Source: Deltaproteobacteria bacterium (lineage in GTDB: Bacteria; Myxococcota_A; Polyangia; Polyangiales; Polyangiaceae). Taken from it: a stretch of DNA of 64,000 nt. Shown here in pieces: positions 10,774-59,253 of this stretch. Positions within the stretch are counted from its first letter, which is position 1. Each line of letters opens with the position of its first letter. The notes under the pieces are model-generated. The model had not been told where the DNA came from. It was given only the letters and a program-made list of their open reading frames with translations, and made no database searches. The position numbers and the translations under genes were made by a program. Location: contig VGRJ01000016.1 in the NCBI GenBank assembly GCA_016875405.1, forward strand, positions 1,128 through 65,127. The letters run 5' to 3'.

Positions 10774-10885
10774 GGCGCGCAAGTGTTGCCACGCGGCGAC
10801 CTCGCCGTCCACGCTCCGCTCGCTCGCACCACCCCGTCGCTTCGCCCACGCGCCACGCCTCCGATGGCGCTATGCTACGCGTCCC

Positions 10886-24446: not shown

Positions 24447-25547
24447 TCACGGCTCCGGCAGCGCGAGGCTGTAACGCCCGAGGTAATCGAGCAGCGCGCG
24501 CTCCTTGCCTTTGGGCCAGCGGCGATGGTTCTGCTCGCCCTTCTCTTTTCCGCATCGTGACGCGTCGAGCGAGCACGCCGGCTCAACCTGATTGCTTATG
24601 CCGAGACGCAGCCCGAGCGTCGGGGCGCGCGCCTGCTCGCGAGCAAGGAGCCACTGCTCGACGTCGAGGCACGAGGTCACCGAGTCACACGCGCGGTAGA
24701 CGATGACCGCCGGGGGCGGCTCCACGGGACACGTCCAGCGCAGCGTCGAGGCGTCGCCGGCGACCGATGCGAACGCCGCGACGCGGTCGGGCCGTGACAT
24801 GGCGTAGAGCGCCGCCATCTCGCCCCCGCGCCCGGCGCCCATCGCGTACACGCGTCGTCGGTCGAGCCAGCCGCGCTTCTCGAGGACCTCGACGAACCGA
24901 TCCGTGGTGCGGACGTCGGTGTTCTCGTCCGAGACGAACCGCGCGTCGAACGCGACGTGGCGCTCGAGGCGGCGCGCCTGCGGCGCAAGGACGATGAAGC
25001 CTCGGCGGTCGGGAGCCGTGCCGAAGTCGTACTCATTGGCGAGGTCGCGGAGGGCAGTCTCGCGCGAGACCTTCGCCGGGGTCTCGTCGTGCGCGTGAAA
25101 GAACACGACGAGCGGCAGTGGGACTCGCTGCTCGATGGCATCCGGCCGAAAGACGCACGCGTAGCGAGGCGTACTGCCTTCGTCGGCGAGCTCGAGGACC
25201 TCGGCGCCACGGCATGCCGGGCGCCTGGCACGCCGCTCGTCGAGCCGCGCCGCCTCGCCCGACGGAGCGAGGCAAGGCCCCTTGACGGGCTCTCGTCGGG
25301 CGATGGGAGCCGTCGCTTCCGGTGCGGTCGAAGCGCTCGCCGAAGGCGAAGGAGGGGTCGAGGACGGCGCCGAGGCGCTCGGTGAGGACGAAGCGCTCGT
25401 CGACGCCGATGCCGACGGCTCGGGTGCCCTCGCGGAGCGATCGAAGACCCCGCGGAGATCCTCGGCGTCGCGCCGCTCCGAGCCACAGGCGCCCAGCAAG
25501 AGGGGCGCGCCGCACGCGAGCCTGACGAGGACGGAACTGCACTTCAA
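24447..25547 (-). CDS. Alpha/beta-hydrolase fold lipoprotein, PHB-depolymerase/LpqC-esterase-like, nucleophile position apparently Gly
   Basis: Proposed TTG start at 25547 gives (M)KCSSVLVRLACGAPLLLGACGS. A Ser/Pro/Ala linker follows. Esterase-like core: LPLVVFFHAH.., RRVYAMGAGRGGEMAALYA. The upstream 209 codons of the 575-aa ORF are Arg-rich and overlap the divergent gene. The start is uncertain. Confidence 0.65.
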   Translation of the reverse strand: MKCSSVLVRLACGAPLLLGACGSERRDAEDLRGVFDRSARAPEPSASASTSASSSPSASAPSSTPPSPSASASTAPEATAPIARREPVKGPCLAPSGEAARLDERRARRPACRGAEVLELADEGSTPRYACVFRPDAIEQRVPLPLVVFFHAHDETPAKVSRETALRDLANEYDFGTAPDRRGFIVLAPQARRLERHVAFDARFVSDENTDVRTTDRFVEVLEKRGWLDRRRVYAMGAGRGGEMAALYAMSRPDRVAAFASVAGDASTLRWTCPVEPPPAVIVYRACDSVTSCLDVEQWLLAREQARAPTLGLRLGISNQVEPACSLDASRCGKEKGEQNHRRWPKGKERALLDYLGRYSLALPEP

Positions 25548-25662
25548 GGCCGGGTTCTCGGGTGGGGACTTGAACCCGCCCGCGCCGTCGAAGCAATCGT
25601 TCTCGTGCGCGCTCGCGCGGTCGTCGGTGCGGCGCGCCCGAGGTATGGAATACTCGTACACG

Positions 25663-28600
25663 ATGCGCTTACGGTTCGTCGCGTTTCTCGCTGCCGTCCT
25701 CGGCTCGCTCATCGGGTGCGCACCACGCGTCTCCTCGACCGCCACCGCGGTTCGCGCGTGCGCGGGCCCGACGGCGCGCACTTGCGAAGGTCGCGCGATC
25801 GCCGAGGTGATGCGCGAGGGCGTGGCCCCCGAGGTCCGCCGACAGCGCCTCCGACGAGAGCTCTCGAAGCTCGACGAGAGCCTCCCCCGCGCGGCGTTCG
25901 GGCCGTTCTTCGACTCGCTGGTCCGCGCGTCGACGACCACGGTCGTCGTGAGGCTCGACGGCGCACCTTGCGCGCCCTGCGCCGGCGTCGCGAAGACGGC
26001 TCCGGCCGGCGCGCTCTCGGTCATGGACGGCCCGCCCGAGCTCGTCGCGTCGAGCCCCGAGCCGTGGCGTCTCCTCGCCGCGCTCGCCCGCGCCGCCGAG
26101 ATCGAAACCCTCGTCATCGTAGACGGTCCCTCCGCGCAGCTCATTTTCGCGCGCGATCCGCTGCGCCCCTTCATGGCCGGCGCCTCGCCGCACGTGCGCG
26201 TCGCCGTCGCCTCGCTCTCACGAGCGCTTGCGCTAAGTCAATTCGTCACCCAGGCCCTGGAGGCCGCGGGGCGCCGCGATTACCCGACCACCGCCGAGCG
26301 GGCCGAGGAGCTTCGCCTCATGCTCGCCACGGGAGACGAGGACGAGGCTACGGTCCGCGCACGCGACGCGGTCGCCGCGCTCGAGCTCGCGGGGGTCACG
26401 CTCGAGCGTCCGACCGCGATGACGGAGACGGAGCCCGCAAGGGCGCTCCCGACCTGGTCCCCCTCGAGCGCCTACGCGGCGCTTGGCCTCGTCCGCGCAC
26501 ACGGGCGCGAGCATCCAGATCTCTTCGCGAGGTACCGACCGCTCTTCGAGCGAGAGCTCGAGGCGGCGCGGTTCGCCGTGCTCGAGCGGCGCTACTCCTC
26601 GGCTCCTCCTTGCGTCGACTCGCCCCCGCTCCCGTTCGACCAGCCCGAAGACCTCATCGGGCTCCCGCTGCTCGCCGAGGCACTGGACCCGAAGGCCGGG
26701 CCAGGGCGCGCGCCCCGACCGGGAAAGCTCGCGCTCACGGACTGGCTCGGCCGCTACGAAGCCGCGCTCCGACTGGTCGAACGCGAGCACCTCGGCTGGC
26801 ACGCGCACACGCCGCTCCTCGGAGAGCGTGGCGGGGGCGCGGGCTTCGCGGTCGAGGGCTCGGACTCGTGGCGACGAACCACCGCGCTCGCCGACGCTCA
26901 CGCGCGCGCGCTCGAGCACCTCTCGCTTCGTCACCCCGCGCGCTTCGCGCCCTTCTCGCTCGGTGCGCTGGCGCTGATGCCCGGAGTCGCCGCGGATCCG
27001 GCGCTTCGGCGCACCATCGCCGAGAGCTTCGCCGCGGCCCTCGGACGAAAGCTTCGCGCGGCCCCTGACACCGAGTCCCTCCTCACCGCGATACTCCTCG
27101 CCGGCGTCATGGCGATGAACGCGCCCGGGTACGTGCAGGGGGCCGAGCTCTCGGCGGTCGCGACGACGCTCGACGCGCGGCTCGAGGGCGACCTCGCCAA
27201 CGCGCGGGGTTGGTCGGCAGGCATGCTCCACGCGGGACGCGCCCTCGCTCGGCTCGCGCTCGGTGTCCCGCGCCCCTTCGAGGACCTCGGCCCGGCGCTC
27301 GATCGCGCGCTCGCCGGGGAGGACCTCCGCTACCCGGTGTTCGGAGACCTGACGCGCGTCGCGGTGGCCTACGCGTCGCTCGCGGCGAGCGACAAGCTCG
27401 ACCTTACGATCGCGAACCCGCGCCTCTACTCGACGGAGCGGAGCGCGGCCCGCGAGCGACTCGCGACCACCCTTCGTCGTCTCGACCCAGCCGGCCCCTC
27501 GTCGCCGCTGGACGAGGATTTGCTGCTGTCGTTGACGGATTACGGGGATGCCCTGCTCGGCGTCGTGGTCGGTTCGATGCGCGAGCCTCAGGCCTCGACG
27601 GCGACCTGCGAAGGGAAGCCGAAGTCGCGGAGCGCACCGGTGCGCGACGCCCTCGATCGAGCCCAGAAGAAGCGTCGACTCCTCGAGCGAGTACCAGCCA
27701 TGCGCGAGAGCGGCGGCAGCTGGTCACGACGAGCGAGGCTCGTCGCGTTGCTCCTCTCGGACCTCCACGACCTCGTCGAACCACCCTCGAAGCCCGACGC
27801 GCCGCGCTTCTCGCTCCCGACCTCGGATGCGGAGCGGATCGTGGCCGAAGCGTTCGCCGGATGGCTCGAGGGCCCAGCCATCGAGGCCGGCGCTAGCCTC
27901 TACAAGCTGGCGCGAGCGGTCGTCTCCGGGAGCGGCGTCCCATCGGGCGCGGCGCTCCTCGCGGACGGCAAGCGCGCGGTCGCGGCGCTCGGCAGGCTGT
28001 TCGGCGACGGCAAACAGACCTCCCTCTTCCGCTTCGTGAGCGAGGCCCTGGACTCGCCCGCGGTGGTCGCCGACCTCACGAGGGACGCCCTCACCGGACG
28101 CAGCAGCGAGGTCTTCGTCACCCTGGCCGCACGCGCGTACGCGACTGGCCTCGTCGAGCAGGGAGACGTGCTCCTCCTCGTCGCGTCGGCGATCTCGGGC
28201 GCGCGCGAAGGCAGCGCACCGGAGTCCGCCATCGCGCTCGCGGAGAAGTACGATCGAACCGTCGCGCTCCCACTCGTCGCGCGGTCCGCGACCGTACAGG
28301 GCGGGCGCGACCCTGCACGGCTCGAGCGGAGCTACCAGCGCGCCACGCGTGGCGTGTGCCGCGCTCCCGAAGCGTCGGGCATCTTCGACGTCGAGCGCGC
28401 ACTCGGAGACTTCCGACGAGGCGATCGCCGCGGCGCGGTCCAAAGGCTCCTCGCGCTCCTCGATCGCAACGAGGCAGAGGGGCTCGTCGTCCCACGGCAG
28501 ACCTTCTCGTATCGGGAGACGAGCGGGCGCGTCGTGTTCAAGCTCGACCTCGGCAGCGCCCTCGCCGTCGACCTCCTCGACAGTCCTGGCATCTTGAACC

Positions 28601-29961
28601 TCGGGCTCGGGGTCGAGGGGAACCCGACGGCGACTGCCCCGCGCCTCTCGATGAGCTTCGACGCCGGTGAGGCCCCACCGCGCGACGCGACGGCGCTTCG
28701 CGTCCACGCCCACACGGCCGCGTTGACCTCGGTCCTCGCGCGACTTGACGGCGATCATGCGTCTGCAGCAAACGTCGCGCGCCGTGCGCTCGCGAGCTAC
28801 GTGACGGGCGCGCGCCTCGGCGACGACGTGATGGTCCCGAGCGACCCCTCCGCGGAGGCGTGGCCGCGCGACGCGGGCACGGTCCTCGCGCTCGCCGCGC
28901 AGCAGGCCGTCGAGGCGGGCGAGCCCTTCCTCGCCGGCTCGCTCCTCGCCCTGCTCCCGCGCGCGCTCGGCGAGAAGGCCACGGACGCCGACGTGCTGCG
29001 GCTGACGCGACACCTCCCTTCCACGCTCGATGGGGTCGATGAGCTCGTTCCCACCTTGCGGCGCGCGACGCAGACCATGACGACCGTCGCGGCGCCGCTC
29101 GCGTGCACCGAGGCCTCCGGCGAGGCTCCCAAGGTCGAGCGCGTGAGCTGCGAGGACTACCCGCTCGCCCTCGCCCTTCGAATCGCCGGGGTGTCGCCGA
29201 AGCTCCCGAGGCTCGCCGCAGCAAAGTCGCCCGAGTCGCCGACCTGCGCAGCCTACCGCACGCTCGACGCGTTCCTCGGCTCGGTTCATCCCGGAGGCTA
29301 CGACCCTGAGAGCTTCGTCCGCGCCGTCGGCTCCCTTCGGGGGGTCGGAAGGCTCGGCGATGCCGCCGCGATCCTGGGTCAGCATCGCCTGTCCACGCAC
29401 TGCACCCCCGCGATCGTCGATCATGCGCGGGCGCTGGGGCGCGAGGCGTCGCTCGGCGTCTACCTGCGCGCCGACGTCCTCAGCGCTGCGGTGGTGTGCG
29501 GGCGCGACGACGCGGTCGCGGCGGATCTCGTGCTGCTCGACGACCTGACGTCGCGACATCCCGTCCCGCTCCGAAGCTTCGAGGTGCTCGCGGCGGCGCT
29601 CGAGGGGGCGCGAGCTGGCTCGCCGGGAGCGCTCCTCGCGATCACCTCGCGCACCGACTTCCTCGCGCGCTGGCGACGCGTGAGCCCCGATCTCGGCGCG
29701 CTCGCGCTCCTGGCAAAGACGGCGGCCGAGCGACTCGCACCCGAGCGGCCGAGCGACGACACGACCGCCGCGAGCTACGCGCTCCTTTGCAGCTCTTTCC
29801 CCGCCGCCGCGCGCACCTCGCTCTGCAACACGGTGAGCCTGCTCCGCTCGGGCCCGACCACAGCGGCTGCGACGACCGCCGCCTTGGACGAGCTCGTCGC
29901 GGCGACCAAAGCGGTGCTCGCCTCACAAAAGCCGCGCGGCGTCGGACGACCGAGCCCCTGA
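25663..29961 (+). CDS. Giant (~1430 aa) Ala/Leu/Arg-rich lipoprotein, no recognisable domain
   Basis: The uninterrupted ORF has strong GC3 bias throughout. ATG at 25663 gives MRLRFVAFLAAVLGSLIGCAP (lipobox LIGC); ATG 25645 is the alternative. Composition is mostly helical. Paired Cys residues occur near both ends. Confidence 0.75.
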   Translation: MRLRFVAFLAAVLGSLIGCAPRVSSTATAVRACAGPTARTCEGRAIAEVMREGVAPEVRRQRLRRELSKLDESLPRAAFGPFFDSLVRASTTTVVVRLDGAPCAPCAGVAKTAPAGALSVMDGPPELVASSPEPWRLLAALARAAEIETLVIVDGPSAQLIFARDPLRPFMAGASPHVRVAVASLSRALALSQFVTQALEAAGRRDYPTTAERAEELRLMLATGDEDEATVRARDAVAALELAGVTLERPTAMTETEPARALPTWSPSSAYAALGLVRAHGREHPDLFARYRPLFERELEAARFAVLERRYSSAPPCVDSPPLPFDQPEDLIGLPLLAEALDPKAGPGRAPRPGKLALTDWLGRYEAALRLVEREHLGWHAHTPLLGERGGGAGFAVEGSDSWRRTTALADAHARALEHLSLRHPARFAPFSLGALALMPGVAADPALRRTIAESFAAALGRKLRAAPDTESLLTAILLAGVMAMNAPGYVQGAELSAVATTLDARLEGDLANARGWSAGMLHAGRALARLALGVPRPFEDLGPALDRALAGEDLRYPVFGDLTRVAVAYASLAASDKLDLTIANPRLYSTERSAARERLATTLRRLDPAGPSSPLDEDLLLSLTDYGDALLGVVVGSMREPQASTATCEGKPKSRSAPVRDALDRAQKKRRLLERVPAMRESGGSWSRRARLVALLLSDLHDLVEPPSKPDAPRFSLPTSDAERIVAEAFAGWLEGPAIEAGASLYKLARAVVSGSGVPSGAALLADGKRAVAALGRLFGDGKQTSLFRFVSEALDSPAVVADLTRDALTGRSSEVFVTLAARAYATGLVEQGDVLLLVASAISGAREGSAPESAIALAEKYDRTVALPLVARSATVQGGRDPARLERSYQRATRGVCRAPEASGIFDVERALGDFRRGDRRGAVQRLLALLDRNEAEGLVVPRQTFSYRETSGRVVFKLDLGSALAVDLLDSPGILNLGLGVEGNPTATAPRLSMSFDAGEAPPRDATALRVHAHTAALTSVLARLDGDHASAANVARRALASYVTGARLGDDVMVPSDPSAEAWPRDAGTVLALAAQQAVEAGEPFLAGSLLALLPRALGEKATDADVLRLTRHLPSTLDGVDELVPTLRRATQTMTTVAAPLACTEASGEAPKVERVSCEDYPLALALRIAGVSPKLPRLAAAKSPESPTCAAYRTLDAFLGSVHPGGYDPESFVRAVGSLRGVGRLGDAAAILGQHRLSTHCTPAIVDHARALGREASLGVYLRADVLSAAVVCGRDDAVAADLVLLDDLTSRHPVPLRSFEVLAAALEGARAGSPGALLAITSRTDFLARWRRVSPDLGALALLAKTAAERLAPERPSDDTTAASYALLCSSFPAAARTSLCNTVSLLRSGPTTAAATTAALDELVAATKAVLASQKPRGVGRPSP

Positions 29962-32369: not shown

Positions 32370-32864
32370 TCAGCGCCAGCAAGACGCGAGGCGCGGGAGC
32401 GGTGAGGCCGCGGCCACCTTCGCGAGCCCAGGGCCGAGCGCAGGCTGCGTCGTGATAGGGCCCGCCACGAGCGGACGACGTCGGCGCGGCACCGGCGCGG
32501 TGAAGGTCGCGAGCCAACGGTCGAGGCGGTCACGCTCCTCGGTCCGCAAGTCGAGCAGCTCGAGCCCCATGCCCACGCCGGGCGTCTCGTCGGTCGCGCC
32601 GCGCGCCGTCATGACGCGCGCTACCGACGCAAACACCTGGAGCTCGACCTCGCCGCCATCGGCCGGCGTGAAGCACACCACGACGATCTCCCCCGCCCGC
32701 ACGGGCTCGGCGGTCTGAAGCCACATCCCCGCGACGGAGAGATCGGTCGCGCGATAGCGCAACACCTCGTCGCTGCGAGGTGCCACGAGCTCGCAGCCGA
32801 GCGAGACCGCGCGCCGGATCGACCGGCGCGAGCCCTGAGGAGTCGACGCTTGCCAGGTGCTCAT
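32370..32864 (-). CDS. PilZ-domain protein (c-di-GMP receptor family)
   Basis: RRSIRR (RxxxR) is followed by ATDLSVAGMWL (D/NxSxxG) and a beta-barrel-like remainder. It lies 27 bp upstream of the cytochrome-rhodanese gene. Confidence 0.8.
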   Translation of the reverse strand: MSTWQASTPQGSRRSIRRAVSLGCELVAPRSDEVLRYRATDLSVAGMWLQTAEPVRAGEIVVVCFTPADGGEVELQVFASVARVMTARGATDETPGVGMGLELLDLRTEERDRLDRWLATFTAPVPRRRRPLVAGPITTQPALGPGLAKVAAASPLPRLASCWR

Positions 32865-36144: not shown

Positions 36145-37869
36145 ATGGCCGTTCAACGTCGCAGCACCTTAGCTTCGCGTCCTCAGCTCCAGCTCGCGAC
36201 CGTCGCGCTCGGGGGCGCGGCGCTCGTCGCGGCCATGACGGGCGCCTGTTACGAGCCCGCAGACACCTACCCGAACTGGAACTTTAACACCGTCGTCCAG
36301 AGCTCGTCGTCGTCCGCGTCGTCTTCGGCGTCCTCGTCCTCCGCCTCATCCTCGAGCGGCTCGGGCGGCGGCGGCGGCGGCGGCGGCGGTGTGGTGCCGT
36401 CCATCGACTGCAGCCCGGAGAGCCCGCTCGACAAGCGCACGTACTTCATCGAGTGCGTGCTCGGAAACCCCGAGCTCAATCAGGCGCCCGCAGGCGGGCT
36501 CATCACCAACTGCGTCAACGGCAACTGCCACCTCAGCGGGAACATCAACTTCCTGAGCCCGCCCGACGAGTACTCGTCGATGGTCGGCTACGTCTCCGAG
36601 ACGACGGGCAAGAGCTTCATCGTGAAGGACGCCGGCTCGAAGAGCCGTCTCATCACGTACCCGCGGACCGGCGGCGGGCACAGCGCCGGCGAGAAGTGGA
36701 AGATCGACGACCCGTCCGACCCGCTCTACCCGCTCTACGAGCACACGGTCACGTGGCTCGACCGCGAGGCCGCAGACATCCAGGGTGAGGTCGTCCTCGA
36801 GACCGACCTCGTCAACCCGAAGGAGAATCCGAACGACACGCTCAACCCGACCCCGGAGGGCTTCGTCTACATCCCGCTCGACGTGCTCGTCGGGCAGACC
36901 GGCGACGCGAAGCTCTCGGGCGCTGCGCTCACGTTCTTCGCCGTGTCCTACGCGGACACGCTGCTCGAGTTGACGGATCTCAAGCTCTGGCCGAGCCCCG
37001 GAGTCGGCATCGAGATCAAGGACATCGGCTTCAAGGTGGTCCCCTCCGCGGACAGCAAGAAGCCGACGACGGTGAACACCAGCCTCTACGGCGACCCGCT
37101 GCGCTTCGTGTCGCCGAAGTTCGTCACCGTCGGCAGCGGCACGGTGCTCCTCACCAATTGGGAGAAGGGTGCGAGCCTGTTCATTCAGTTCAAGTCGATG
37201 AGGTCGCTCCTCGCCGACAAGAACGGCAACGCGTACCTGCCGTGCAACGACGTCGCGGGCTTCACCGCCGCGGTGAAGAAGCTGCCCTATGACCTCTACA
37301 ACTGTGACAAGCCGAACGGCCTCATGTACTGCGGCCGGCAGTGCCACGGCGGCGGCGAGTACACGCTCGAACCCAACAAGCTCACGACGAAGATGGACCT
37401 CTACGGCCTCTTCACGACGCCGAGCGACTACGACCTCGCCTGCGCTGCGACCCGCACGAAGATCACGCCCGGCAACGTGGCGACCTCGCCGATCCTCAAC
37501 CTGCCGAACCCCGCCATCGCCGGCAACCCTGCGGTCCCCGCGACGCACGCCTTCTTCAAGTTCTGCGGCTCCGCGAGCGCCTACAAATCCTACAAGGACG
37601 CCGTGAGCCCCTGGATTTGCAGCGAATCGGGCACGAGCCTGTGCGGGGTGACCTGCGTCGACACGAAGACGAGCGCTCAGCACTGCGGCGGCTGCAACAA
37701 GGCCTGCACCGGCGGACAGGTGTGCAACGCGGGCGCGTGCGGCTGCCCCAACAACACGAAGAGCTGCAGCGGGACCTGCGTCGACACCACGAAGGACTCG
37801 AACAATTGCGGCGACTGCGGCGTCGTGTGCATGGCCCCGCAGACGTGCTCGGGCGGCACCTGCAAGTGA
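36145..37869 (+). CDS. Secreted lipoprotein: poly-Ser/poly-Gly linker, cytochrome-c-like module with non-canonical Cys..CysHis motifs, C-terminal Cys-rich CGxC repeats
   Basis: Lipobox is AAMTGAC. The linker is SSSSSASSSASSSSASSSSGSGGGGGGGGG. Haem-like motifs are NCVNGNCH and YCGRQCHGGG. The C-terminal repeats are CVDTKTSAQHCGGCNKACTGGQVCNAGAC and CVDTTKDSNNCGDCGVVCMAPQTCSGGTC. Confidence 0.8.
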   Translation: MAVQRRSTLASRPQLQLATVALGGAALVAAMTGACYEPADTYPNWNFNTVVQSSSSSASSSASSSSASSSSGSGGGGGGGGGVVPSIDCSPESPLDKRTYFIECVLGNPELNQAPAGGLITNCVNGNCHLSGNINFLSPPDEYSSMVGYVSETTGKSFIVKDAGSKSRLITYPRTGGGHSAGEKWKIDDPSDPLYPLYEHTVTWLDREAADIQGEVVLETDLVNPKENPNDTLNPTPEGFVYIPLDVLVGQTGDAKLSGAALTFFAVSYADTLLELTDLKLWPSPGVGIEIKDIGFKVVPSADSKKPTTVNTSLYGDPLRFVSPKFVTVGSGTVLLTNWEKGASLFIQFKSMRSLLADKNGNAYLPCNDVAGFTAAVKKLPYDLYNCDKPNGLMYCGRQCHGGGEYTLEPNKLTTKMDLYGLFTTPSDYDLACAATRTKITPGNVATSPILNLPNPAIAGNPAVPATHAFFKFCGSASAYKSYKDAVSPWICSESGTSLCGVTCVDTKTSAQHCGGCNKACTGGQVCNAGACGCPNNTKSCSGTCVDTTKDSNNCGDCGVVCMAPQTCSGGTCK

Positions 37870-39313: not shown

Positions 39314-40555
39314 ATGCGTGACTGGAACCGCGAGGTCGTCATCACCGGCATGGGCGTCGTCTGCCACCTCGGCGACGAGCTCGCCGCGCTCGAGCGGCAC
39401 CTCCGCTCCGGGACGAGCCTGCCGTTCGCGCGCTGGGCACCGGCGGTCGAGCACGGTGCGCGCTGTCAGCTCATCGGCGTCTACGAAGGCGACGTCAGCG
39501 ACGACGCGCTCGGCATCGACAAGCGTGCATCGCGCTTCTTTGGTCGCTCGTCGAGGCTCGCGCTCAAGGCGGCCCGGGCGGCGCTCGCCACGTCGGGGCT
39601 CGACCCGCGCGAGGCCGCGCTCATCGTCGGGAGCGGCACCGGAGACGTCGAGACGCACCGCGAGGTGCATAGCAAGCTCGAGGCCACGCACGACGCAAAG
39701 AAGGTCGGACCGACCGTGATTCCGCGGATCATGGCGTCCACTGTGTCGGCGAACCTCGTCAACGTGCTCGAGACGCGCGGGCCGAGCCTCTCGGTCAGCG
39801 CGGCGTGCGCGGGCGGCACCTATAACGTGCTGCTCGCGGCCCAGCTGATCGAGGCCGGCTTCGTGGACGCGGCGATCGCAGGGGGCGTCGAGTGCGGCGA
39901 CATCCACTTCCACTCGGGCTTCGACGCCATGCGCGCGTACAACGGCACCGACAACGACACCCCCGAGCGCGCCTCGCGGCCATACGCGGCCGACCGCGCG
40001 GGCTTCATCTTCGCCGAGGGCGCGGGGGTGCTCGTCCTCGAGTCGCTCGGCTCGGCGCGCGCGCGCGGCGCGACGATCCTCGGCACGGTTCGCGGCTACG
40101 GCATGTCCTCCGACGGCAAAGGCGAGATGGTCGCGCCCGACGAGGACGGGGCCTACCGCGCCATGTGTCGCGCGCTCGCGCACGCCGAAGTCGAGGCCGA
40201 CGCCATCGACTACGTGAACACGCACGGCACGTCGACACCGCTCGGCGACGTCTCCGAGGTCCGCGCGCTTCGACGCGCGTTCGGCGGCCGTCACGTGCGC
40301 TACTCCTCGACGAAGGGATACACCGGCCACACCATCAGCGCCGCCGGAGCCATCGAGGCGATCTTCACGCTGCTCATGCTCCGAGGAGGCTACGTCGCCC
40401 CGTCGATTCGTGCGAATCCGCTGGATCCTGCGGTCCAGGATTTTTCCCCGGTGGTCGAGCCGCTCGCGGTCGACCTCCAAATCGCGGCGTCGAACTCGTT
40501 CGGCTTCGGCGGCACCAACGCGACGCTGGTCCTCGCGCGCGAACCGCGAGGTTGA
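39314..40555 (+). CDS. Beta-ketoacyl-ACP synthase I/II (FabF/FabB-like), stand-alone
   Basis: VVITGMGVV; Cys-His-His triad context (SAACAGG; NTHGTSTPLGD; GYTGHTISAAG); C-terminal NSFGFGGTNA. Confidence 0.9.
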   Translation: MRDWNREVVITGMGVVCHLGDELAALERHLRSGTSLPFARWAPAVEHGARCQLIGVYEGDVSDDALGIDKRASRFFGRSSRLALKAARAALATSGLDPREAALIVGSGTGDVETHREVHSKLEATHDAKKVGPTVIPRIMASTVSANLVNVLETRGPSLSVSAACAGGTYNVLLAAQLIEAGFVDAAIAGGVECGDIHFHSGFDAMRAYNGTDNDTPERASRPYAADRAGFIFAEGAGVLVLESLGSARARGATILGTVRGYGMSSDGKGEMVAPDEDGAYRAMCRALAHAEVEADAIDYVNTHGTSTPLGDVSEVRALRRAFGGRHVRYSSTKGYTGHTISAAGAIEAIFTLLMLRGGYVAPSIRANPLDPAVQDFSPVVEPLAVDLQIAASNSFGFGGTNATLVLAREPRG

Positions 40556-40601
40556 CGCGCGGCAAAGGAGCGCATGCGGGGGGCGCCGCTCGCAGGCTCG
40601 C

Positions 40602-42434
40602 TCACTCCTTGTCGAGGCGACCGACGAAGCCGACGTCGAACTCGACCCCCATGTAACGGAAGTGCGGCCGCAGCTGGACGTCGACCTTGTACCAGCCGGC
40701 GCTGCCCTCGACCTCGGACACCGAGATCTTCGCCTTTCGAAGCGGCCTCTTCGCGCGCACACCAGGCGTCACCGAGGCTTGGTCCGCGACGAACTGGTTG
40801 ATCCACTTCTGCAGCTCACGCTCGAGGTCCTGGCGCCCCTTCCACGTCCCGATCTGCTCGCGCTGCAAGACCTTGAGGTAGTGGGCGATCCGGCTGCTGA
40901 CGAAGAGGTAAGGGAGCTGGGTCCCGAGGCGATGGTTCAGCGCGGCGCGGCGGCCCTCTTCGCTGATGCCAAACGTCTTCGGACGCTGACAGCTGTTCGC
41001 CGAGAAGAAGCACGCGTTCTCGGTGTCGCGACGGTACGTGAACGCGATGAAACCCTGCTCGGCGATCTCGGACTCACGCCGCTCGGTGACGATCACCTCG
41101 GTCGGGATCTTGGTCTGGATCTCGCCCATCGCGTCGAAGCGGTGGAGCGGCAGGTCGGCCACGGTTCCGCCCGTCGAGGGCCCGATGATGTTCGGGCACC
41201 AGCGATAGCGGGCAAAGCTATCGGCGATGCGAGTCGCGAAAGCGAAGGCCGCGTTGCCCCAGAGGTAGTGCTCATGATGACCGACGACGTCTTCTTCGTA
41301 TTCGAACGCGCGGACGCGGACGGTCCTTGGCCCATAAGGCAGCCGAAGCAAGAAGCGCGGCAGGCACAGCGCAACGTACCGAGCGTCGTCGGAGTCGCGG
41401 AACGCGCGCCACTTCGTGAACGCTGGCCCCTCGTGGAGCGAGTGGAGGTCGCTCAGTTGCGGCAGGTCGAGGTAGTCGTCGAGCCCAAAGAACTTCGACG
41501 CGGCGGCCGCGATGAACGGCGCGTGCGCCATCGTGGCGACCGAGGCGCACTTGTCGAGCAGGTAGATGTCTTGCGCCGACGGGGTAAACTCATAGTTCGC
41601 CACGATGACGCCGTAAGGCCTGCCGCCGAAGACGCCGTACTCGGACGAGTAGGCGATCCGGTATATGCCGCTCTTGGCGACCTCCGGCGCGTCCTGAAAA
41701 TCGTCGAGCAAGTCGCGCTTGCTCACGTTGAGCATTTTGACGCGGATGTTCTCGCGAAACTCGACGCGATCGACGACAAAGGCAAGACCACGCCAAGCGG
41801 CCTCGAGGGCCTGAAACGTCGGGTTGTGTAGAATGACGTCGACCTGTCGCGAGATGCGCTCGGTCAGCGACGCGATGAGCAGATCGACGAGCGCGTTGTC
41901 GACGAGCGTCACGTCGACCCCGGTGCGCGCGACGAACGCGATGAGACCGAGGAGACCGGACTCGAGGGCTTCACGCGACGGTGCGGCCGGCACGCCCAAG
42001 AGAAGCGCCGCGACCTCGTCGAGGAGCGAAGGTGCGGGCCCCGCCTCGGCGATCGAGAGGAGGTCGAGCGCCGCGTCGCTTCTGCCGAGGTTCGGTGCCG
42101 AGGAGGGAACGCCCGGCAGCGTCGGCGCCGACGACGGTTGCGAACGGCGCGCCCCGAGCTCGAAGGCCGGCGCCGGAGATGGGCCGCCCGTGCCCGGTGG
42201 GGCGGCCGAGGGGGCCGGGGGCGGCGAGGACGCTTGCGGAAGAGTGGCGGCCGCGGGGCTCGCCGGAGGTGGCGCGCCCCAGCCCGGCGGCGCGGATGCT
42301 TGCGGCAGAGGGGCGGACGCGGGACTCGCCGGAGGTGGCGCGCCCCAGCCCGGCGGCGCGGACGCTTGCGGCAGAGGGGCGGCCGCGGGACTCGCGGCTG
42401 TAGCGTCGTTTCGCTCGTCGGAATCGGTGGGCAT
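40602..42434 (-). CDS. tssC: Type VI secretion contractile sheath large subunit (TssC/VipB family) with ~110-130 aa Pro-rich repeat N-terminal extension
   Basis: Hallmark blocks occur over ~480 aa: VILHNPTFQALEAAWRGL, EYGVFGGRPYG, MAHAPFIAAA, DARYVALCLPRFLLRLPYG, HEHYLWGNAAFAFA, YRWCPNIIGP, FFSANS, LGTQLPY, KVLQREQIG and RPHFRYMG..FVGRLDKE. They are very close to V. cholerae VipB as I recall it (not computed). Confidence 0.9.
   Translation of the reverse strand: MPTDSDERNDATAASPAAAPLPQASAPPGWGAPPPASPASAPLPQASAPPGWGAPPPASPAAATLPQASSPPPAPSAAPPGTGGPSPAPAFELGARRSQPSSAPTLPGVPSSAPNLGRSDAALDLLSIAEAGPAPSLLDEVAALLLGVPAAPSREALESGLLGLIAFVARTGVDVTLVDNALVDLLIASLTERISRQVDVILHNPTFQALEAAWRGLAFVVDRVEFRENIRVKMLNVSKRDLLDDFQDAPEVAKSGIYRIAYSSEYGVFGGRPYGVIVANYEFTPSAQDIYLLDKCASVATMAHAPFIAAAASKFFGLDDYLDLPQLSDLHSLHEGPAFTKWRAFRDSDDARYVALCLPRFLLRLPYGPRTVRVRAFEYEEDVVGHHEHYLWGNAAFAFATRIADSFARYRWCPNIIGPSTGGTVADLPLHRFDAMGEIQTKIPTEVIVTERRESEIAEQGFIAFTYRRDTENACFFSANSCQRPKTFGISEEGRRAALNHRLGTQLPYLFVSSRIAHYLKVLQREQIGTWKGRQDLERELQKWINQFVADQASVTPGVRAKRPLRKAKISVSEVEGSAGWYKVDVQLRPHFRYMGVEFDVGFVGRLDKE
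42229..42395 (-). repeat. 66-bp (22-codon) direct tandem repeat, ~2.5 copies, inside the tssC 5' extension
   Basis: Units at 42229-42294, 42295-42360 and a partial unit at 42361-42395 are near-identical. On the minus strand they encode PLPQASAPPGWGAPPPASPA(S/A)A. Confidence 0.9.
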
Positions 42435-42491
42435 CGCGTCCCTCGGCAGAACTCGAGAGAGACCAGATTAACGCGTTTCGAACAACGCGTC

Positions 42492-42866
42492 TCAGGTTCG
42501 GCGCGTCGGACCTGCGTTGCGTGCGGAGTTCTCGGCCGCGGCGATGAGCTCCATGAAGAGCCTCACGTCTCGCTCACCGAGCTTGAAGAACTGCAGGCCT
42601 GCGACACCGCGCCGATCCCACCGAACGATCGAGCGCACGACGATCTCCTCGTCGAAGCCGAGCAGGCGAACGAACACGCGCACGCGCGAGCCGACCTCGA
42701 GGGCCGGGCCACTCGCGGGCTCGAGGAGCCCGCCCGCGAGCGTGATCTCCGTGACCCACCCGGCAGTCCGGTCCGACGCACCCACGCGCTGAAACTCCAC
42801 GGGAAGCGGCTGCGGTCGGGCAGGCTTGCGGTTGCCTGAAGAAGCGAGAGGGTCGGACGACGTCAC
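42492..42866 (-). CDS. PilZ-like small beta-barrel protein
   Basis: GTG start. RKPAR (RxxxR) is followed by VTEITLAGGLL (a degenerate D/NxSxxG) and then a PilZ-like pattern (GSRVRVFVRL..EEIVVRSIVRW..GVAGLQF). It lies 57 bp upstream of tssC. Confidence 0.65.
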   Translation of the reverse strand: MTSSDPLASSGNRKPARPQPLPVEFQRVGASDRTAGWVTEITLAGGLLEPASGPALEVGSRVRVFVRLLGFDEEIVVRSIVRWDRRGVAGLQFFKLGERDVRLFMELIAAAENSARNAGPTRRT

Positions 42867-42964
42867 CGATTCGGGAGTCTAGCGCGGTCCGACGGGTCGG
42901 GTGCAACTCTCGTCGATGGTTTGTGCTCGAAGCCTGCGAGCGAAGGGGTAGACTCGCGAGCTCC

Positions 42965-43321
42965 ATGTCGACGACGATTCCGCCCGCCGGCATTCACCCG
43001 ACGCTGCCGCCTCCTCCGGCCCATCGCGCCAAGCGCGCGCTCGGGTTCGCCGTCGCCGGGCTGGTCTTGCTGGTGCTCGCGGTGACCGCGAGCCGCTCGG
43101 CGATGGCTGACTCTGCGACGGTCTTTGACGGACGCAACGACCACGAGCTCGCCTCGACCCTCGCGCGACTCCTCTTCGGCGCGAGCGGGATCGCCGAGCT
43201 CCTCGGGGTCGTCTACGCGTGGTCCTCGCTGCTGCTCGCTCGACGACGCTCGCTGGCGGCCTTCGGCATCGCCCTCACGTGGTTTGCCGTCGTCGCATGG
43301 TGGCTCTGGCGGAGCCGCTGA
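42965..43321 (+). CDS. Small hypothetical membrane protein (3 predicted TM helices)
   Basis: ATG 42965 (or GTG 42923). Hydrophobic stretches: ALGFAVAGLVLLVLAV, LLFGASGIAELLGVVYAWSSLLL and AAFGIALTWFAVVAWWLW. Confidence 0.5.
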   Translation: MSTTIPPAGIHPTLPPPPAHRAKRALGFAVAGLVLLVLAVTASRSAMADSATVFDGRNDHELASTLARLLFGASGIAELLGVVYAWSSLLLARRRSLAAFGIALTWFAVVAWWLWRSR

Positions 43322-43403
43322 CCGTCGTCGCGCGGCGCTGGACCATTCGCGCCTCACGGAAAAACCGTGATTTTACGCATGCACAGCCTACAATCCGGGC
43401 GGC

Positions 43404-45347
43404 ATGCGACCCATGATGAGAAGGCTCGTCCTCGGCGCGCTCGCAGCGTCGCTCCTCGGTTGCTCGAGCGCGGACAGCGAGAGCGCGACGGATGCGACCA
43501 CGGGCGGCAACGGTACGGCCGGCGTCGGAGGCTCGAGCGTCGACGCGACCGCGGCGAGCAGCAGCGTCGCAGCCACCGGCTCGACCACCGGCGGTGGGGC
43601 CACGACGAACGCCGCGAGTGGAGCGAGCGCGTCGACGGGCGCGAGCTCCTCCAGCTCCGGCATGCCAGACCCCGTCGACCCAGTCGACTTGCGCGCCGAC
43701 ACGAACCGGGACGGCGTGATCGATTTCGCTACGAGCGATGACGACCTCGGCGAAGACGCCTGGAGCGCCGACCACGGCGCGGTGTTCCTCGCCAACCTCG
43801 ACGACGACGCGCTCGCCTGCCCGACCTCGGGGACCGACGCCGAGCTCGCGGCGTGCCACGACGCCGCGGACGACGTCGTGAACGGCCCCGACGACCTCGC
43901 GGACCTGGCGCGCCTCGCGACCCGCCCCTGGCCCGCGGTCCCGGCGGGCGCGACCGGCACGATCAAGCTGTCGGCCCCCGGCGCGAGCTACGTGCGCCTC
44001 TTCAAGAAGGGCCCGTCCGGGTTCTCGGCCTTCGCGCCTGGGGCCAAGCTGTCGAGCGCGGAGCTGTCTGCCGGGGTCGAGTTGGCGCTCGAAGGAAGGG
44101 ACATCGTCCGAGACGCCGCCGCATGGAACGGCCGCGTGACCGCGACGCTCGAGGTGACCGGCGCTGGCGCCGACAGCGGCACCGACTCGGTCGAGCTGCG
44201 CATCGCACCGGCGTTGTTCCGCCATCACCTCGACCCCGCGAGCACCTACTACGTGACGAAGATCAACTCGAACTCGAGCTTGGCCTTCCGCAACGATCTC
44301 GCCGAGGCCGCGAAGGTCGCGCAGGTTCCGGTACGCGAGCTCGCCCTCAACGATCAGTGGACGCAGGACTTCTTCGAGACCGCTTACACCGCGATGCCTG
44401 CGGTCGGCGGGGGCGGCAAGCACGTCCTCCACCTCAACTTCCGCTCGGCAAATTACTCGAACGGCAAGGCGCGCGCCGCCGGCCGCGTAGTGTTCACCGA
44501 TCTCCGAGGAAAGAACGTCGGAGGCGTGCACGTCTACGACCCGAAGCACCCCGACTCGATGGATACGCTGAACTCGTTCGGCAACCTCGAGACCATCCCC
44601 CCCTACAGCTTCGGAGGCACGTCGTGGCCGCTCGGTCGCGTCATCCGCGGTTCGACCGGCACCTTCTACGCAGACAAGGCGTTCGACGCGATGGTGAACG
44701 CGCAGGGGGCGCAGGACGTGTTCTACGTCGACACGTCCTGGCTCCTCGTCGCGCACGTCGACGAGACGCTGTCGTTCATCAAGGCTCCGAGTCCGCGCGG
44801 GTGGGTGATGCTCGTCAGCGACCCTGCCGCGGCCAAGAAGCTCTTCGAGCAGCAGAAGGCCGCCGGCAATGGAGGCGCGACGGTGTTTAGCGGCCTCTAC
44901 TGGGCCGACAACAGCCTGGCGCAGACCACCGTCAATGGGGTCCTCTCGGACACGGACGTGCTGAACGAGAGCGCGTGGGCGGCGACCGAGCTCGCGGAAC
45001 AGCTCGATCTCGTCAAGGCCGAGACGGGCCTGCTGGACACCGAGCTCGTGAGCGTGCCGTTCCTCTTCCAGCAGGCGTCAGGGTACTCGGTCGCGTATCA
45101 GCCCGGCACGGTGAACGGCATCTCGCTAAGCGACACGGTCTTCGCCGCGCCGAAACCCAACGGTCCCGTCGTCAACGGCGTCGACGTCTTCGAGGCGCAG
45201 CTCAAGCAAGCGCTCTCGCCTTACGGCGTCTCGGCCTTCTTTGTACGCGACTGGTACCTCTATCACATCCTCGACGGTGAGGTTCACTGCGGGAGCAACA
45301 CGACACGCGCGGTTCCGGCCACGACGAACTGGTGGGAGAGCCTCTGA
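43404..45347 (+). CDS. PADI-type protein-arginine deiminase homologue, lipoprotein
   Basis: Lipobox is SLLGCSS. A Gly/Ser/Thr/Ala linker follows, then an Asp-rich segment (DTNRDGVIDF, FLANLDDD). Catalytic blocks are DQWTQDFFE, LLVAHVDETLSF and DGEVHCGSNTTR, the PAD4-like Asp/His/Asp/Cys. Confidence 0.85.
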   Translation: MRPMMRRLVLGALAASLLGCSSADSESATDATTGGNGTAGVGGSSVDATAASSSVAATGSTTGGGATTNAASGASASTGASSSSSGMPDPVDPVDLRADTNRDGVIDFATSDDDLGEDAWSADHGAVFLANLDDDALACPTSGTDAELAACHDAADDVVNGPDDLADLARLATRPWPAVPAGATGTIKLSAPGASYVRLFKKGPSGFSAFAPGAKLSSAELSAGVELALEGRDIVRDAAAWNGRVTATLEVTGAGADSGTDSVELRIAPALFRHHLDPASTYYVTKINSNSSLAFRNDLAEAAKVAQVPVRELALNDQWTQDFFETAYTAMPAVGGGGKHVLHLNFRSANYSNGKARAAGRVVFTDLRGKNVGGVHVYDPKHPDSMDTLNSFGNLETIPPYSFGGTSWPLGRVIRGSTGTFYADKAFDAMVNAQGAQDVFYVDTSWLLVAHVDETLSFIKAPSPRGWVMLVSDPAAAKKLFEQQKAAGNGGATVFSGLYWADNSLAQTTVNGVLSDTDVLNESAWAATELAEQLDLVKAETGLLDTELVSVPFLFQQASGYSVAYQPGTVNGISLSDTVFAAPKPNGPVVNGVDVFEAQLKQALSPYGVSAFFVRDWYLYHILDGEVHCGSNTTRAVPATTNWWESL

Positions 45348-58601: not shown

Positions 58602-59204
58602 TCAGGGGAGGCGCGTGCGGGCGCCGCCCATCGCCATCACCGCTCGGCAGTGCGCGAGGTCGACCGGCTGGACGCTGAGTCGCTGCCCGCGCTGGAGCAC
58701 GAGCATCCCCTCGAGATCGGCCGACTCCTTCAGCTCGGCTAGCGACACGTAGCGCGCGAAGCGCTCGACGAAGGCGAGCTCGACGAGCATCCAGCGAGGC
58801 TCGGTCAGCGTCGCGGCGGGGTCGTGGTACTCGCTCGCGCGATCGAACTGGGTCGGATCGGGGTAGGCCTCCGAGGCCACGCGCGCGAGGCCAGCGACGC
58901 CCGGCGGCTCGCTCGACGAGTGGTAGAAGAGGACGAGCTCGCCGACCTTCATGTCGTCGCGCATGAAGTTACGGGCCTGGTAGTTGCGGACGCCGGTCCA
59001 GGCAGTCTTCCCGTCGCGCGCGAGCGCGTCGATCGAGTAGACGTGCGGCTCCGACTTCACGAGCCAGGTCTTCGGGGCGGAGGGGCGCGGGGCGCTCCCC
59101 TTCGACACCGCAGGCTTGCGGGTGGGCAGCGCGGCAGAGGTCGCAGCCGCGGGCTTCGCCTTCGTCGTGACCTTCGCCTTCGCGGTAAGCTTCTTCGTCG
59201 CCAT
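58602..59204 (-). CDS. EVE (PUA-like) domain protein with Lys/Ala/Pro-rich histone-H1-like N-terminal tail
   Basis: The tail is MATKKLTAKAKVTTKAKPAAATSAALPTRKPAVSKG. The EVE core is WLVKSEPHVYSIDAL..WTGVRNYQARNFMRDDMKVGELVLFYHS. Confidence 0.8.
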   Translation of the reverse strand: MATKKLTAKAKVTTKAKPAAATSAALPTRKPAVSKGSAPRPSAPKTWLVKSEPHVYSIDALARDGKTAWTGVRNYQARNFMRDDMKVGELVLFYHSSSEPPGVAGLARVASEAYPDPTQFDRASEYHDPAATLTEPRWMLVELAFVERFARYVSLAELKESADLEGMLVLQRGQRLSVQPVDLAHCRAVMAMGGARTRLP

Positions 59205-59253
59205 CGGCGCGCATTATTCACGACCGCGACCAGGGTCGCTATGCTCGCGCGCC

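What the first reader, a model, noticed from the sequence alone, without database searches (positions are those of the whole stretch)
40602..42866. Orphan but highly conserved T6SS sheath gene tssC: no tssB, no other T6SS genes, preceded by a PilZ-like gene
Seen: the C-terminal ~480 aa of the 40602-42434 product carry essentially every TssC/VipB block I can recall: ILHNPTFQALEAAWRGL, FGGRPYG, HAPFIAAA, DARYVALCLPRFLLRLPYG, HEHYLWGN, YRWCPNIIGP, FFSANS, LGTQLPY, KVLQREQIG and RPHFRYMG..GRLD. Known: the T6SS sheath is an obligate TssB/TssC polymer, and tssB almost always sits just upstream of tssC. Seen: here the upstream gene, 57 bp away, is a 124-aa PilZ-like barrel (RKPAR..EITLAGG). Downstream is a convergent KAS gene. 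Nothing else in 64 kb resembles tssA/B/E/F/G/J/K/L/M, hcp, vgrG or clpV. Inference: this may be an alternative sheath subunit that pairs with a TssB encoded elsewhere, perhaps gated by c-di-GMP through the PilZ-like protein. Alternatively it is a sheath protein co-opted for a non-T6SS role. The strong conservation argues against a decaying relic.
Basis: partly seen in the sequence, partly recalled or inferred. Interest (0 to 1): 0.75.

Follow-up and report, generated by a model that had tools for sequence, protein, structure and literature searches.

The report
Stand-alone T6SS sheath gene paralog
This is a well-conserved extra copy of the large sheath protein (TssC) of the bacterial type VI secretion "spring-gun", encoded far from the rest of the machine in Polyangiaceae-type myxobacteria that also hold a normal copy with its partner elsewhere; its outer surface is remodelled, it carries a floppy repeat tail, and its role is unknown and apparently undescribed.

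Summary
40602-42434(-) encodes a full-length TssC: TIGR03355 628 bits, Pfam VipB + VipB_2, best PDB match TssC 5urw. The gene 57 bp upstream is a divergent PilZ domain, not TssB. Nothing else in the 64 kb is T6SS-related.

New findings:
- The orphan is not a one-off. All 8 TssCs found without tssB fall in one 49-member clade of the TssC tree, most in conserved synteny (PAD/RNB … tssC … KAS-PLD).
- dN/dS is 0.14-0.18, so it is not a relic.
- A related MAG holds both a canonical tssB-tssC cluster and the orphan. The window's own MAG almost certainly does too: a canonical TssC sits 707 accession numbers away and has TssB beside it.
- Divergence is confined to the outer domain-3 helices.
- The LLDE ClpV-docking motif is kept and apparently duplicated.
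- The closest lineages add a disordered tail with conserved PPGWG repeats.

Best reading: an accessory sheath subunit that uses TssB in trans and alters the sheath surface or its recycling. This step is inferred, not shown. A c-di-GMP link through PilZ is plausible but untested. I rate it a new variant of a known kind, of moderate interest.

The parts
40602..42434 (-). Stand-alone tssC paralog, 610 aa (stop codon included)
   Evidence: Pfam VipB + VipB_2. TIGR03355 at 628.6 bits. PDB 5urw_B TssC at 645 bits, query aa 135-610 aligned to chain 19-494. Identical to NCBI MBM4374693.1. An SD-like GAGGGA lies 4 nt before the ATG at 42434.
42033..42434 (-). N-terminal extension (aa 1-134), absent from cluster-encoded TssCs: acidic start, Pro/Ala-rich, two APPGWGAPPP units (aa 26-35 and 48-57)
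   Evidence: The same architecture occurs in L001/L005, L003 and L022: an acidic start followed by PPGWG repeats in variable number. AF2 predicts no secondary structure and pLDDT about 30-37 for aa 1-123. Canonical TssCs are 491-494 aa.
42220..42395 (-). In-frame 66-bp tandem repeat (2.7 copies, 92% matches) encoding the 22-aa GW unit
   Evidence: TRF result. The period is a multiple of 3. The protein-level repeat is seen.
42039..42071 (-). Extra clade-specific motif ALDLLSIAEAG (aa 122-132), the window's version of (P)SL[DE][EA]IA[EA]x[ST]; it resembles a second copy of the ClpV-docking helix
   Evidence: About 40 core orphan TssCs carry this insertion directly before the first canonical helix, and canonical TssCs do not. 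A helix is predicted at aa 125-131.
42000..42029 (-). Canonical N-terminal helix SLLDEVAALL (aa 136-145) holding the LLDE[IV] ClpV-binding-type motif
   Evidence: The region aligns with SLLDEIL/SLLDEIM of canonical TssC and VipB. The motif is defined as 19-LLDEIM-24 in PMC4239648.
41835..42032 (-). Remodelled outer 'domain 3' helices (aa 135-200)
   Evidence: Mean conservation is 0.43-0.51 in the orphan clade and 0.87-0.90 in canonical TssCs. Canonical near-invariant residues E152, G153, A157, V161, Q162, E167, P171, R173, E176 and D191 are replaced. The domain definition comes from PMC5807055.
40605..41834 (-). Conserved sheath core (domains 1 and 2 and the C-terminal handshake strand, aa 201-610)
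   Evidence: Of 475 columns, 143 are >=95% conserved with the same residue in both clades. Conservation per 25-aa window is 0.71-0.86 in orphans and 0.82-0.95 in canonical TssCs. The C-terminal ...VGRLDKE is retained.
42435..42491 (-). 57-bp PilZ-tssC spacer with a conserved CGAAACGCGTTA element, a TAnnnT hexamer and the SD
   Evidence: Alignment of four lineages and the sequence itself. No terminator was predicted between the two genes.
42492..42866 (-). PilZ-like gene ('family A', 124 aa): RKPAR at aa 13-17, EITLAGG at aa 40-46
   Evidence: Pfam PilZ at 23.1 bits (cutoff 22.5). hhalign against clear PilZ family B gives E 8.3e-5 over 107 columns with the motifs in register, and 0.1% probability against TssB. 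The AF2 model has 6 strands plus a C-terminal helix, pLDDT 64.6. The top 19 Foldseek PDB hits are all PilZ domains. Orthologs sit directly upstream of tssC in L001, L003 and L022.
42965..43321 (+). Divergently transcribed small membrane protein conserved next to PilZ-A; relation to tssC unknown
   Evidence: Orthologs occur at the same position in L001 and L003 (117 aa, no Pfam hit) and in L022. The window copy has no Pfam hit.

Best explanation
The gene is a member of a conserved family of stand-alone TssC paralogs in Polyangiaceae-type myxobacteria. It arose by duplication of the lineage's own cluster-encoded tssC and then settled among housekeeping genes.

Shown: these genomes keep a complete canonical T6SS cluster with its own tssB-tssC elsewhere, and the paralog is under purifying selection. 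It keeps the sheath core, the C-terminal handshake strand and the LLDE-type ClpV-docking helix.

Inferred: the paralog still works inside the T6SS sheath. It would form protomers with the TssB supplied in trans by the main cluster and co-polymerise on the same baseplate and tube.

Shown: the differences all lie where TssC faces the cytoplasm. The domain-3 helices are remodelled. A second LLDE-like motif is inserted ahead of the first helix. In the window's sub-clade there is also a ~120-aa disordered Pro/Ala tail with conserved PPGWG repeats.

Inferred: the paralog changes the outer surface of the sheath. That would alter ClpV-mediated recycling or recruit another factor, rather than changing contraction itself.

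Speculative: the co-oriented PilZ-like gene 57 bp upstream, conserved in the four closest lineages, could tie production or use of the paralog to c-di-GMP.
For: Identity.

Family rather than accident:
- All 8 TssCs whose context was seen to lack tssB (window, L001/L005, L003, L004, L006, L013, L016, L017) fall in one clade of 49 of the 126 sequences in the NJ tree. L006 is cut at its contig start. L014's protein shares a 90% cluster with clade member P0030. Lengths are 460-610 aa, against 491-494 aa for the tight canonical clade.
- Ten contigs covering 8 lineages lack tssB upstream.
- Synteny is conserved: PAD/RNB ... PilZ ... tssC ... MatE/Metallophos ... KAS-PLD.

Selection: dN/dS is 0.136-0.175 among the closest orthologs and 0.28 for the canonical pair.

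Co-occurrence with a full system:
- GCA_041389685.1 has tssK-L-M-tagF-x-tssB-tssC on contig 1 (L011) and the orphan on contig 6 (L014).
- Canonical TssC P0092 (MBM4373986.1) is 707 accession numbers from the window's TssC and has TssB upstream at 141-186 bits.

Functional signature: divergence is confined to aa 135-200 while the core and C-terminus stay conserved. The LLDE motif is kept and an LDEIAE-like motif added.

Tail is translated: PPGWG repeats are conserved in 4 lineages with variable copy number.
Against: - No direct evidence shows that the paralog binds TssB or enters a sheath.
- The remodelled domain 3 is the region that bundles with the TssB C-terminal helix (PMC5807055), so the canonical TssB contact there may be weakened or lost.
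- Co-occurrence in the window's own MAG rests on accession proximity, not on a read assembly.
- MAG bins can be chimeric.
- No expression data exist.
- The AF2 monomer model was of low confidence (pLDDT 49), and multimer modelling was not available.
- The NJ tree has no support values.
Confidence: 0.55

Rival explanations
1. The paralog has left the sheath and acts without TssB. One version is a soluble ClpV-binding decoy or regulator using its two LLDE-like motifs. Another is a scaffold for a non-T6SS process recruited through the GW tail.
For: There is no adjacent tssB in any of 8 lineages. Divergence is concentrated in the helices that pack against the TssB C-terminal helix. The docking-like motif is duplicated and a disordered tail added. 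The gene is embedded among housekeeping genes.
Against: The sheath core, including the strands that interlace with TssB and the C-terminal handshake strand, stays almost as conserved as in canonical TssCs. That is hard to explain if polymerisation and TssB pairing were lost. In Agrobacterium, TssC41 and TssB are barely detectable in each other's absence (PMC3702570).
Confidence: 0.22
2. The PilZ-like protein encoded upstream is the paralog's dedicated small partner, replacing TssB or binding the GW tail, so that c-di-GMP directly gates assembly.
For: The PilZ-A then GW-tailed-tssC gene pair is conserved in 4 lineages with a 57-80 bp spacer and no predicted terminator. PilZ-A is a very narrow family, with 5 clusters in 5.8 billion proteins, and was seen only next to tssC wherever flanks exist. 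RxxxR is invariant.
Against: PilZ-A shows no similarity to TssB (hhalign probability 0.1%) and has a PilZ barrel fold, so it cannot supply the TssB strands. Most orphan lineages lack PilZ-A. They have a different PilZ several kb away with other genes between, or none nearby. The second c-di-GMP motif is non-canonical (E-x-T-x-x-G).
Confidence: 0.12
3. It is a decaying relic of a lost T6SS cluster, or tssB is missing because of an assembly or binning artefact.
For: The locus has no other T6SS gene, and the source is a MAG contig.
Against: The reading frame is intact at 610 aa. dN/dS is 0.14-0.18. All family HMMs are passed at very high scores. The same tssB-less arrangement with conserved housekeeping synteny appears in ten independently assembled contigs from different samples, up to 678 kb long.
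Confidence: 0.02

Closest known systems
Cluster-encoded TssC/VipB of T6SS-i, e.g. Myxococcus-type TssC (PDB 5urw/5urx), V. cholerae VipB (3j9g, 5mxn) and Polyangiaceae cluster TssCs (L011, L012)
   Same: Full-length homology: 62-65% identity to Polyangiaceae cluster TssCs and 645 bits to 5urw_B. Both Pfam domains are present. The core, the C-terminal handshake strand and the LLDE-type N-terminal helix are all conserved.
   Different: It is not next to tssB or any T6SS gene. It has 134 extra N-terminal residues with PPGWG repeats and an inserted second LLDE-like motif. The domain-3 helices have lost the canonical invariant residues. It evolves on longer branches.
Second TssC of group-5 T6SS clusters (Agrobacterium tumefaciens TssC40 beside TssC41)
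   Same: It is a second TssC-type protein in a genome that has one TssB. In Agrobacterium the two TssCs are not redundant and only TssC41 co-stabilises TssB. The role of the extra copy is called unclear in the literature (PMC3702570; PMC5813230).
   Different: TssC40 lies inside the T6SS operon, directly after tssC41, and has only limited similarity to TssC41. The gene here is far from the cluster, is a close paralog of the canonical TssC, and carries the N-terminal additions.
Orphan hcp/vgrG/PAAR islands
   Same: These are structural T6SS genes encoded away from the main cluster and used in trans by it (mentioned in PMC13098142).
   Different: Those islands diversify the tube, spike and effector load and usually carry effector and immunity genes. 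No orphan sheath subunit is described in the papers searched.
Single-domain PilZ c-di-GMP receptors (Alg44 PilZ, MapZ, PA4608, BcsA PilZ)
   Same: For the upstream gene: the six-strand barrel plus C-terminal helix topology, the RxxxR motif, and top structural matches that are all PilZ domains.
   Different: The second motif is E-x-T-L-A-G rather than (D/N)xSxxG. The Pfam score is marginal. The family is very narrow. The only PilZ-T6SS link found in the literature is transcriptional, via HinK in P. aeruginosa (PMC10912698).

Membership tests
TssC / VipB sheath large subunit (TIGR03355; PF05943 + PF18945) | Scores above the curated cut-offs of the family models over the full length | tested here: met
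   TIGR03355 at 628.6 bits against 271.5, model positions 17-473 of 473. PF05943 at 407 bits and PF18945 at 137 bits.
TssC / VipB sheath large subunit (TIGR03355; PF05943 + PF18945) | Sequence homology to solved sheath subunits across all domains, including the C-terminal handshake strand | tested here: met
   5urw_B at 645 bits with aa 135-610 aligned to chain 19-494; 5ojq and 3j9g at about 600 bits. The C-terminal VGRLDKE is conserved.
TssC / VipB sheath large subunit (TIGR03355; PF05943 + PF18945) | N-terminal ClpV-docking helix with an LLDEI(I/M)-type motif (for the class that has it) | tested here: met
   LLDEVA occurs at aa 137-142 and aligns with LLDEIL/LLDEIM. The motif definition is from PMC4239648. 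Binding itself was not tested.
TssC / VipB sheath large subunit (TIGR03355; PF05943 + PF18945) | Encoded next to tssB within a T6SS gene cluster | tested here: not met
   No TssB in six-frame ORFs of the window or the orphan loci. No other T6SS gene was found.
TssC / VipB sheath large subunit (TIGR03355; PF05943 + PF18945) | Forms a 1:1 protomer with TssB and polymerises into a contractile sheath | not testable with these tools
   No multimer prediction or experiment was available. The monomer AF2 model had low confidence.
Complete T6SS-i in the same genome | Core genes tssA-M, hcp, vgrG and clpV present somewhere in the genome | tested here: inconclusive
   Shown in part for related MAG GCA_041389685.1, with tssK, L, M, tagF, B and C on another contig. 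For the window's MAG only tssB-tssC is inferred, through accession proximity.
PilZ domain (PF07238), for the upstream gene | Profile match above the gathering score and homology to clear PilZ proteins | tested here: met
   23.1 bits against 22.5, which is marginal. hhalign against the PilZ-B family gives E 8.3e-5 over 107 columns.
PilZ domain (PF07238), for the upstream gene | Six-stranded beta-barrel fold | tested here: met
   The AF2 model has 6 strands plus a helix, pLDDT 64.6. The top 19 Foldseek PDB hits are PilZ domains, with weak E-values of 0.01-0.2.
PilZ domain (PF07238), for the upstream gene | c-di-GMP-binding motifs RxxxR and (D/N)xSxxG | tested here: inconclusive
   RxxxR is present wherever the N-terminus is complete: RKPAR in the window, with both arginines invariant among window, L001 and L003. 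The second motif is E-x-T-L-A-G, not canonical. Binding was not tested.
TssB / VipA (PF05591), for the upstream gene | Homology to the TssB family | tested here: not met
   The TssB HMM gives no hit at E<=10. hhalign probability is 0.1%.
Group-5-type second TssC (Agrobacterium TssC40-like) | Second tssC located directly after the first inside the T6SS operon | tested here: not met
   The gene lies among housekeeping genes. The canonical clusters L011 and L012 have a single tssC after tssB.

The most novel reading that the evidence does not exclude
The orphan-TssC family could be a previously unrecognised regulatory sheath subunit. When it is incorporated into sheaths built by the canonical T6SS, or used to cap them, its tandem ClpV-docking-like motifs and exposed GW-repeat tail would set how fast sheaths are disassembled or where they are tethered. 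In the GW sub-clade this would be coupled to c-di-GMP through the dedicated PilZ-A protein. That would be structural-level control of T6SS dynamics by an alternative subunit.
Probability: 0.15. Interest if true: 0.75.

Novelty: new variant of a known kind. Interest (0 to 1): 0.55.

Why it matters
The T6SS sheath is treated as an obligate 1:1 TssB/TssC polymer encoded by adjacent genes. Genome surveys count orphan hcp, vgrG and PAAR genes but not sheath genes. Here a whole lineage keeps a second, stand-alone TssC under purifying selection, with changes confined to the surface that ClpV and accessory factors see.

If it co-assembles with the main system, sheath composition would become a regulated variable. 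That gives a natural handle on an open question: how sheath recycling and stability are tuned. If it works without TssB, it would be the first sheath protein co-opted for another role.

There is also a practical point. Automated T6SS counting by tssC hits will over-count systems in Myxococcota.

Tried and rejected
- Exact look-ups of the window's TssC and GlnRS in the contig index failed. The window's assembly accession was therefore never read directly, and same-MAG status rests on NCBI accession proximity.
- The genome-contig scan returned only 6 loci because the peptide patterns were too specific. Co-occurrence could not be surveyed across many genomes.
- The metagenome scan with PilZ-A returned only 3 loci.
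- The AF2 model of the window TssC with a 56-sequence alignment reached only pLDDT 49 and pTM 0.24. I did not use it for fold search; only the absence of structure in aa 1-123 is cited, as weak support.
- A PDB sequence search with the PilZ-A profile gave only spurious PPR-repeat hits.
- The promoter/terminator scan of 40300-43500 gave nothing above the shuffle expectation.
- The hypothesis that the upstream gene is a cryptic TssB was rejected.
- The weak blastp hit L010_2320-3012 to window 9934-10869 (E 1e-4) falls in a short-chain dehydrogenase and is not T6SS-related.
- Five literature searches found no description of a stand-alone tssC.
Full report

Yes. The window has about 70% G+C. It is almost the whole of a 66.8-kb contig of a MAG labelled 'Deltaproteobacteria bacterium', because the 610-aa product of 40602-42434(-) is identical to NCBI MBM4374693.1.

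The protein passes Pfam VipB (4.8e-122) and VipB_2 (5.2e-40). It passes the NCBIfam equivalog model for the T6SS sheath large subunit at 628.6 bits against a cut-off of 271.5. Its best solved relative is TssC chain 5urw_B at 645 bits, aligned from aa 135 to the C-terminus.

The upstream ORF 42492-42866(-) is 57 bp away and contains RKPAR and EITLAGG. The downstream beta-ketoacyl synthase gene is convergent.

**2. Is it alone?**

A TssB HMM built from four canonical loci scored 277-290 bits on those loci. It found nothing at E<=10, filters off, in any six-frame ORF of the window or of the related loci.

Every ORF of four canonical clusters (Pseudomonas, Chitinasiproducens, a gammaproteobacterial MAG and a planctomycete MAG) hit only TssC. 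Every gene of two Polyangiaceae clusters (TssK, TssL, TssM, TagF, TssB and unnamed cluster genes) also hit only TssC.

A Pfam survey of essentially all window genes found aminoacyl-tRNA synthetases, ExoVII, biotin carboxylase, RuvX, thiolase, SOD, BipA, transporters and similar families. It found no T6SS family.

**3. It is a family, not an accident.**

Contexts of homologs show the same tssB-less arrangement in ten independently assembled contigs (eight lineages) from different samples. These are the window, L001/L005, L003, L004 (a 678-kb contig), L013, L014, L016 and L017. L002 carries the same TssC as L001 but starts only about 340 bp upstream of the gene.

Most share housekeeping synteny: PAD or RNase-II-type gene ... 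small proteins/PilZ ... tssC ... [MatE, metallophosphatase] ... KAS-PLD.

In an NJ tree of 126 TssCs, all 8 proteins with a known orphan context form one clade of 49 sequences (the L014 protein was not in the tree but shares a 90% cluster with clade member P0030). That clade has variable length (460-610 aa) and longer branches, and it nests among Myxococcota TssCs. Cluster-encoded Polyangiaceae TssCs form a tight clade of 491-494 aa (L011 and L012: tssK-L-(x)-M-tagF-x-tssB-tssC). The window protein is 62-65% identical to these and 48-57% identical to the gamma- and betaproteobacterial TssCs.

**4. It is not a relic.**

Nei-Gojobori dN/dS over 492 aligned codons is 0.136-0.175 among the closest orphan orthologs (dS about 0.9-1.1). 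The canonical pair L011/L012 gives 0.28.

**5. TssB exists elsewhere in the genome.**

In Polyangiaceae MAG GCA_041389685.1 the canonical cluster with tssB-tssC lies on contig JAWKRJ010000001.1 (L011). A syntenic orphan tssC lies on JAWKRJ010000006.1 (L014).

For the window's own MAG, the canonical-clade TssC P0092 is MBM4373986.1. That is only 707 accession numbers from the window protein. P0005, from another MAG of the same accession series, is 16,318 away. In the two metagenome contigs that encode P0092, a genuine TssB lies directly upstream, scoring 141 and 186 bits and cut only by the contig ends. Same-MAG status here is an inference from accession numbering.

**6. What is different about the paralog?**

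(a) Divergence is local. Per-column comparison of 49 orphan against 73 canonical and outgroup sequences shows the core from aa 201 onwards is nearly as conserved as in canonical TssCs. There, 143 of 475 columns are >=95% conserved with the same residue in both groups.

Residues 135-200 drop to 0.43-0.51 mean conservation, against 0.87-0.90 in canonical TssCs. They have lost the canonical near-invariant residues E152, G153, A157, V161, Q162, E167, P171, R173, E176 and D191. In the P. aeruginosa sheath these N-terminal helices form the outer 'domain 3' three-helix bundle with the TssB C-terminal helix, next to the helix targeted by ClpV (PMC5807055).

(b) The ClpV-docking-type motif survives. 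It is defined as 19-LLDEIM-24 in VipB (PMC4239648) and appears as LLDEVA at aa 137-142. About 40 'core' orphans carry an additional look-alike motif, (P)SL[DE][EA]IA[EA]x[ST], inserted just before it. In the window this is ALDLLSIAEAG at aa 122-132. Early-branching orphans (L016, L017) lack both the insertion and any extension, and keep more of the canonical domain-3 signature. That fits stepwise divergence after the gene left the cluster.

(c) The window, L001/L005, L003 and L022 share an N-terminal tail with an acidic start followed by Pro/Ala-rich repeats. The core PPGWG is conserved while the repeat number varies. In the window the tail includes an in-frame 66-bp tandem repeat. The ATG at 42434 has an SD-like GAGGGA. 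AF2 predicts no structure for aa 1-123, though the whole model is of low confidence.

**7. The upstream gene.**

It is a divergent PilZ domain, supported by four lines:
- Pfam just above the gathering score.
- Profile-profile E 8.3e-5 against a clear PilZ family found in the same neighbourhoods, with the RxxxR and DxSxxG-type motifs in register.
- A six-strand plus C-terminal-helix model.
- Nineteen top PDB fold matches that are all PilZ domains.

It is unrelated to TssB. The family is tiny, with 5 clusters in 5.8 billion proteins. Wherever flanks exist it sits directly upstream of a GW-tailed tssC. RxxxR is present in every sequence with a complete N-terminus. The second motif is E-x-T-L-A-G, so c-di-GMP binding is uncertain.

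Other orphan lineages have a different, canonical-motif PilZ a few kb away. In the window that is 32370-32864(-). Some have none nearby. The PilZ link is therefore a feature of a sub-clade.

**8. Mechanism.**

Shown: a selected TssC paralog, with an intact polymerisation core and docking helix, in genomes that encode TssB and the rest of the machine elsewhere.

Inferred, at about 0.55: it pairs with that TssB in trans and enters T6SS sheaths. There its remodelled outer face, extra docking-like motif and disordered GW tail would change recycling or recruit other factors.

Rivals:
- A TssB-independent role such as a ClpV decoy, about 0.2.
- PilZ-A as a dedicated partner or gate, about 0.1.
- A relic or artefact, about 0.02.

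**9. Comparison and novelty.**

It meets the sequence-defined criteria of TssC but fails the genomic-context criterion. Heterodimer formation could not be tested.

The nearest precedent is the second TssC of group-5 clusters (Agrobacterium TssC40/TssC41). Those two are non-redundant and the role of the extra copy is described as unclear (PMC3702570, PMC5813230). That copy lies inside the operon and is only distantly similar to its neighbour.

Five full-text searches found no description of a stand-alone tssC.

Verdict: a new variant of a known kind, with interest about 0.55.

Noticed in passing
L011:14279-16261 and L018:3020-4957 (not in the window): A single 645-660-aa gene carries both TssB (VipA) and TssC (VipB) Pfam domains, only 23-27% identical to the canonical proteins. 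It lies 1.2-2.8 kb downstream of the canonical tssB-tssC in two Polyangiaceae-type genomes. In L011 it is followed by three hypothetical genes and an 862-aa HSP70/MreB-like gene. These organisms therefore hold three kinds of sheath gene.
   Followed up: partly
window 32370-32864 (-): A second PilZ gene ('family B', 164 aa, Pfam 32.3 bits) has textbook RRxxRR and DLSxxG motifs. Orthologs lie within a few kb of the orphan tssC in L002, L004, L013, L014 and L016.
   Followed up: partly
window 42435-42491: The PilZ-tssC spacer holds a CGAAACGCGTTA element flanked by ACGCGT palindromes, followed by a TAnnnT hexamer about 30 nt before the ATG. The element is conserved in four lineages. It may be an internal promoter or an operator.
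   Followed up: partly
window 43404-45347 (+): A 647-aa protein is a strong match to the eukaryote-type protein-arginine deiminase family (PF03068, 3e-87). It is conserved in synteny near the orphan tssC in L003 and L004.
   Followed up: no
window 42965-43321 (+): A small predicted membrane protein has no Pfam match and is transcribed divergently from PilZ-A. It is conserved at the same position in L001, L003 and L022.
   Followed up: no
window 25165-29961 (+): A 1598-aa ORF with coding-type codon composition has no Pfam hit. An apparent counterpart (1445 aa, no Pfam) sits at the edge of L002.
   Followed up: no
window 59041-60417 (+): A transaldolase/FSA-family enzyme carries C-terminal EF-hand calcium-binding motifs. 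The same combination is seen in L001.
   Followed up: no
window 36145-37869 (+): A probable secreted protein has a poly-Ser/poly-Gly linker and a Cys-rich Stig1-like C-terminus, and lies between GlnRS and PLD. It is conserved in L002.
   Followed up: no
PDB hit list for the window TssC: PDB entry 9n4v ('DUF877 family protein', 24 chains) matches the TssC core at 376 bits. It is a sheath-like assembly that is not labelled as T6SS.
   Followed up: no
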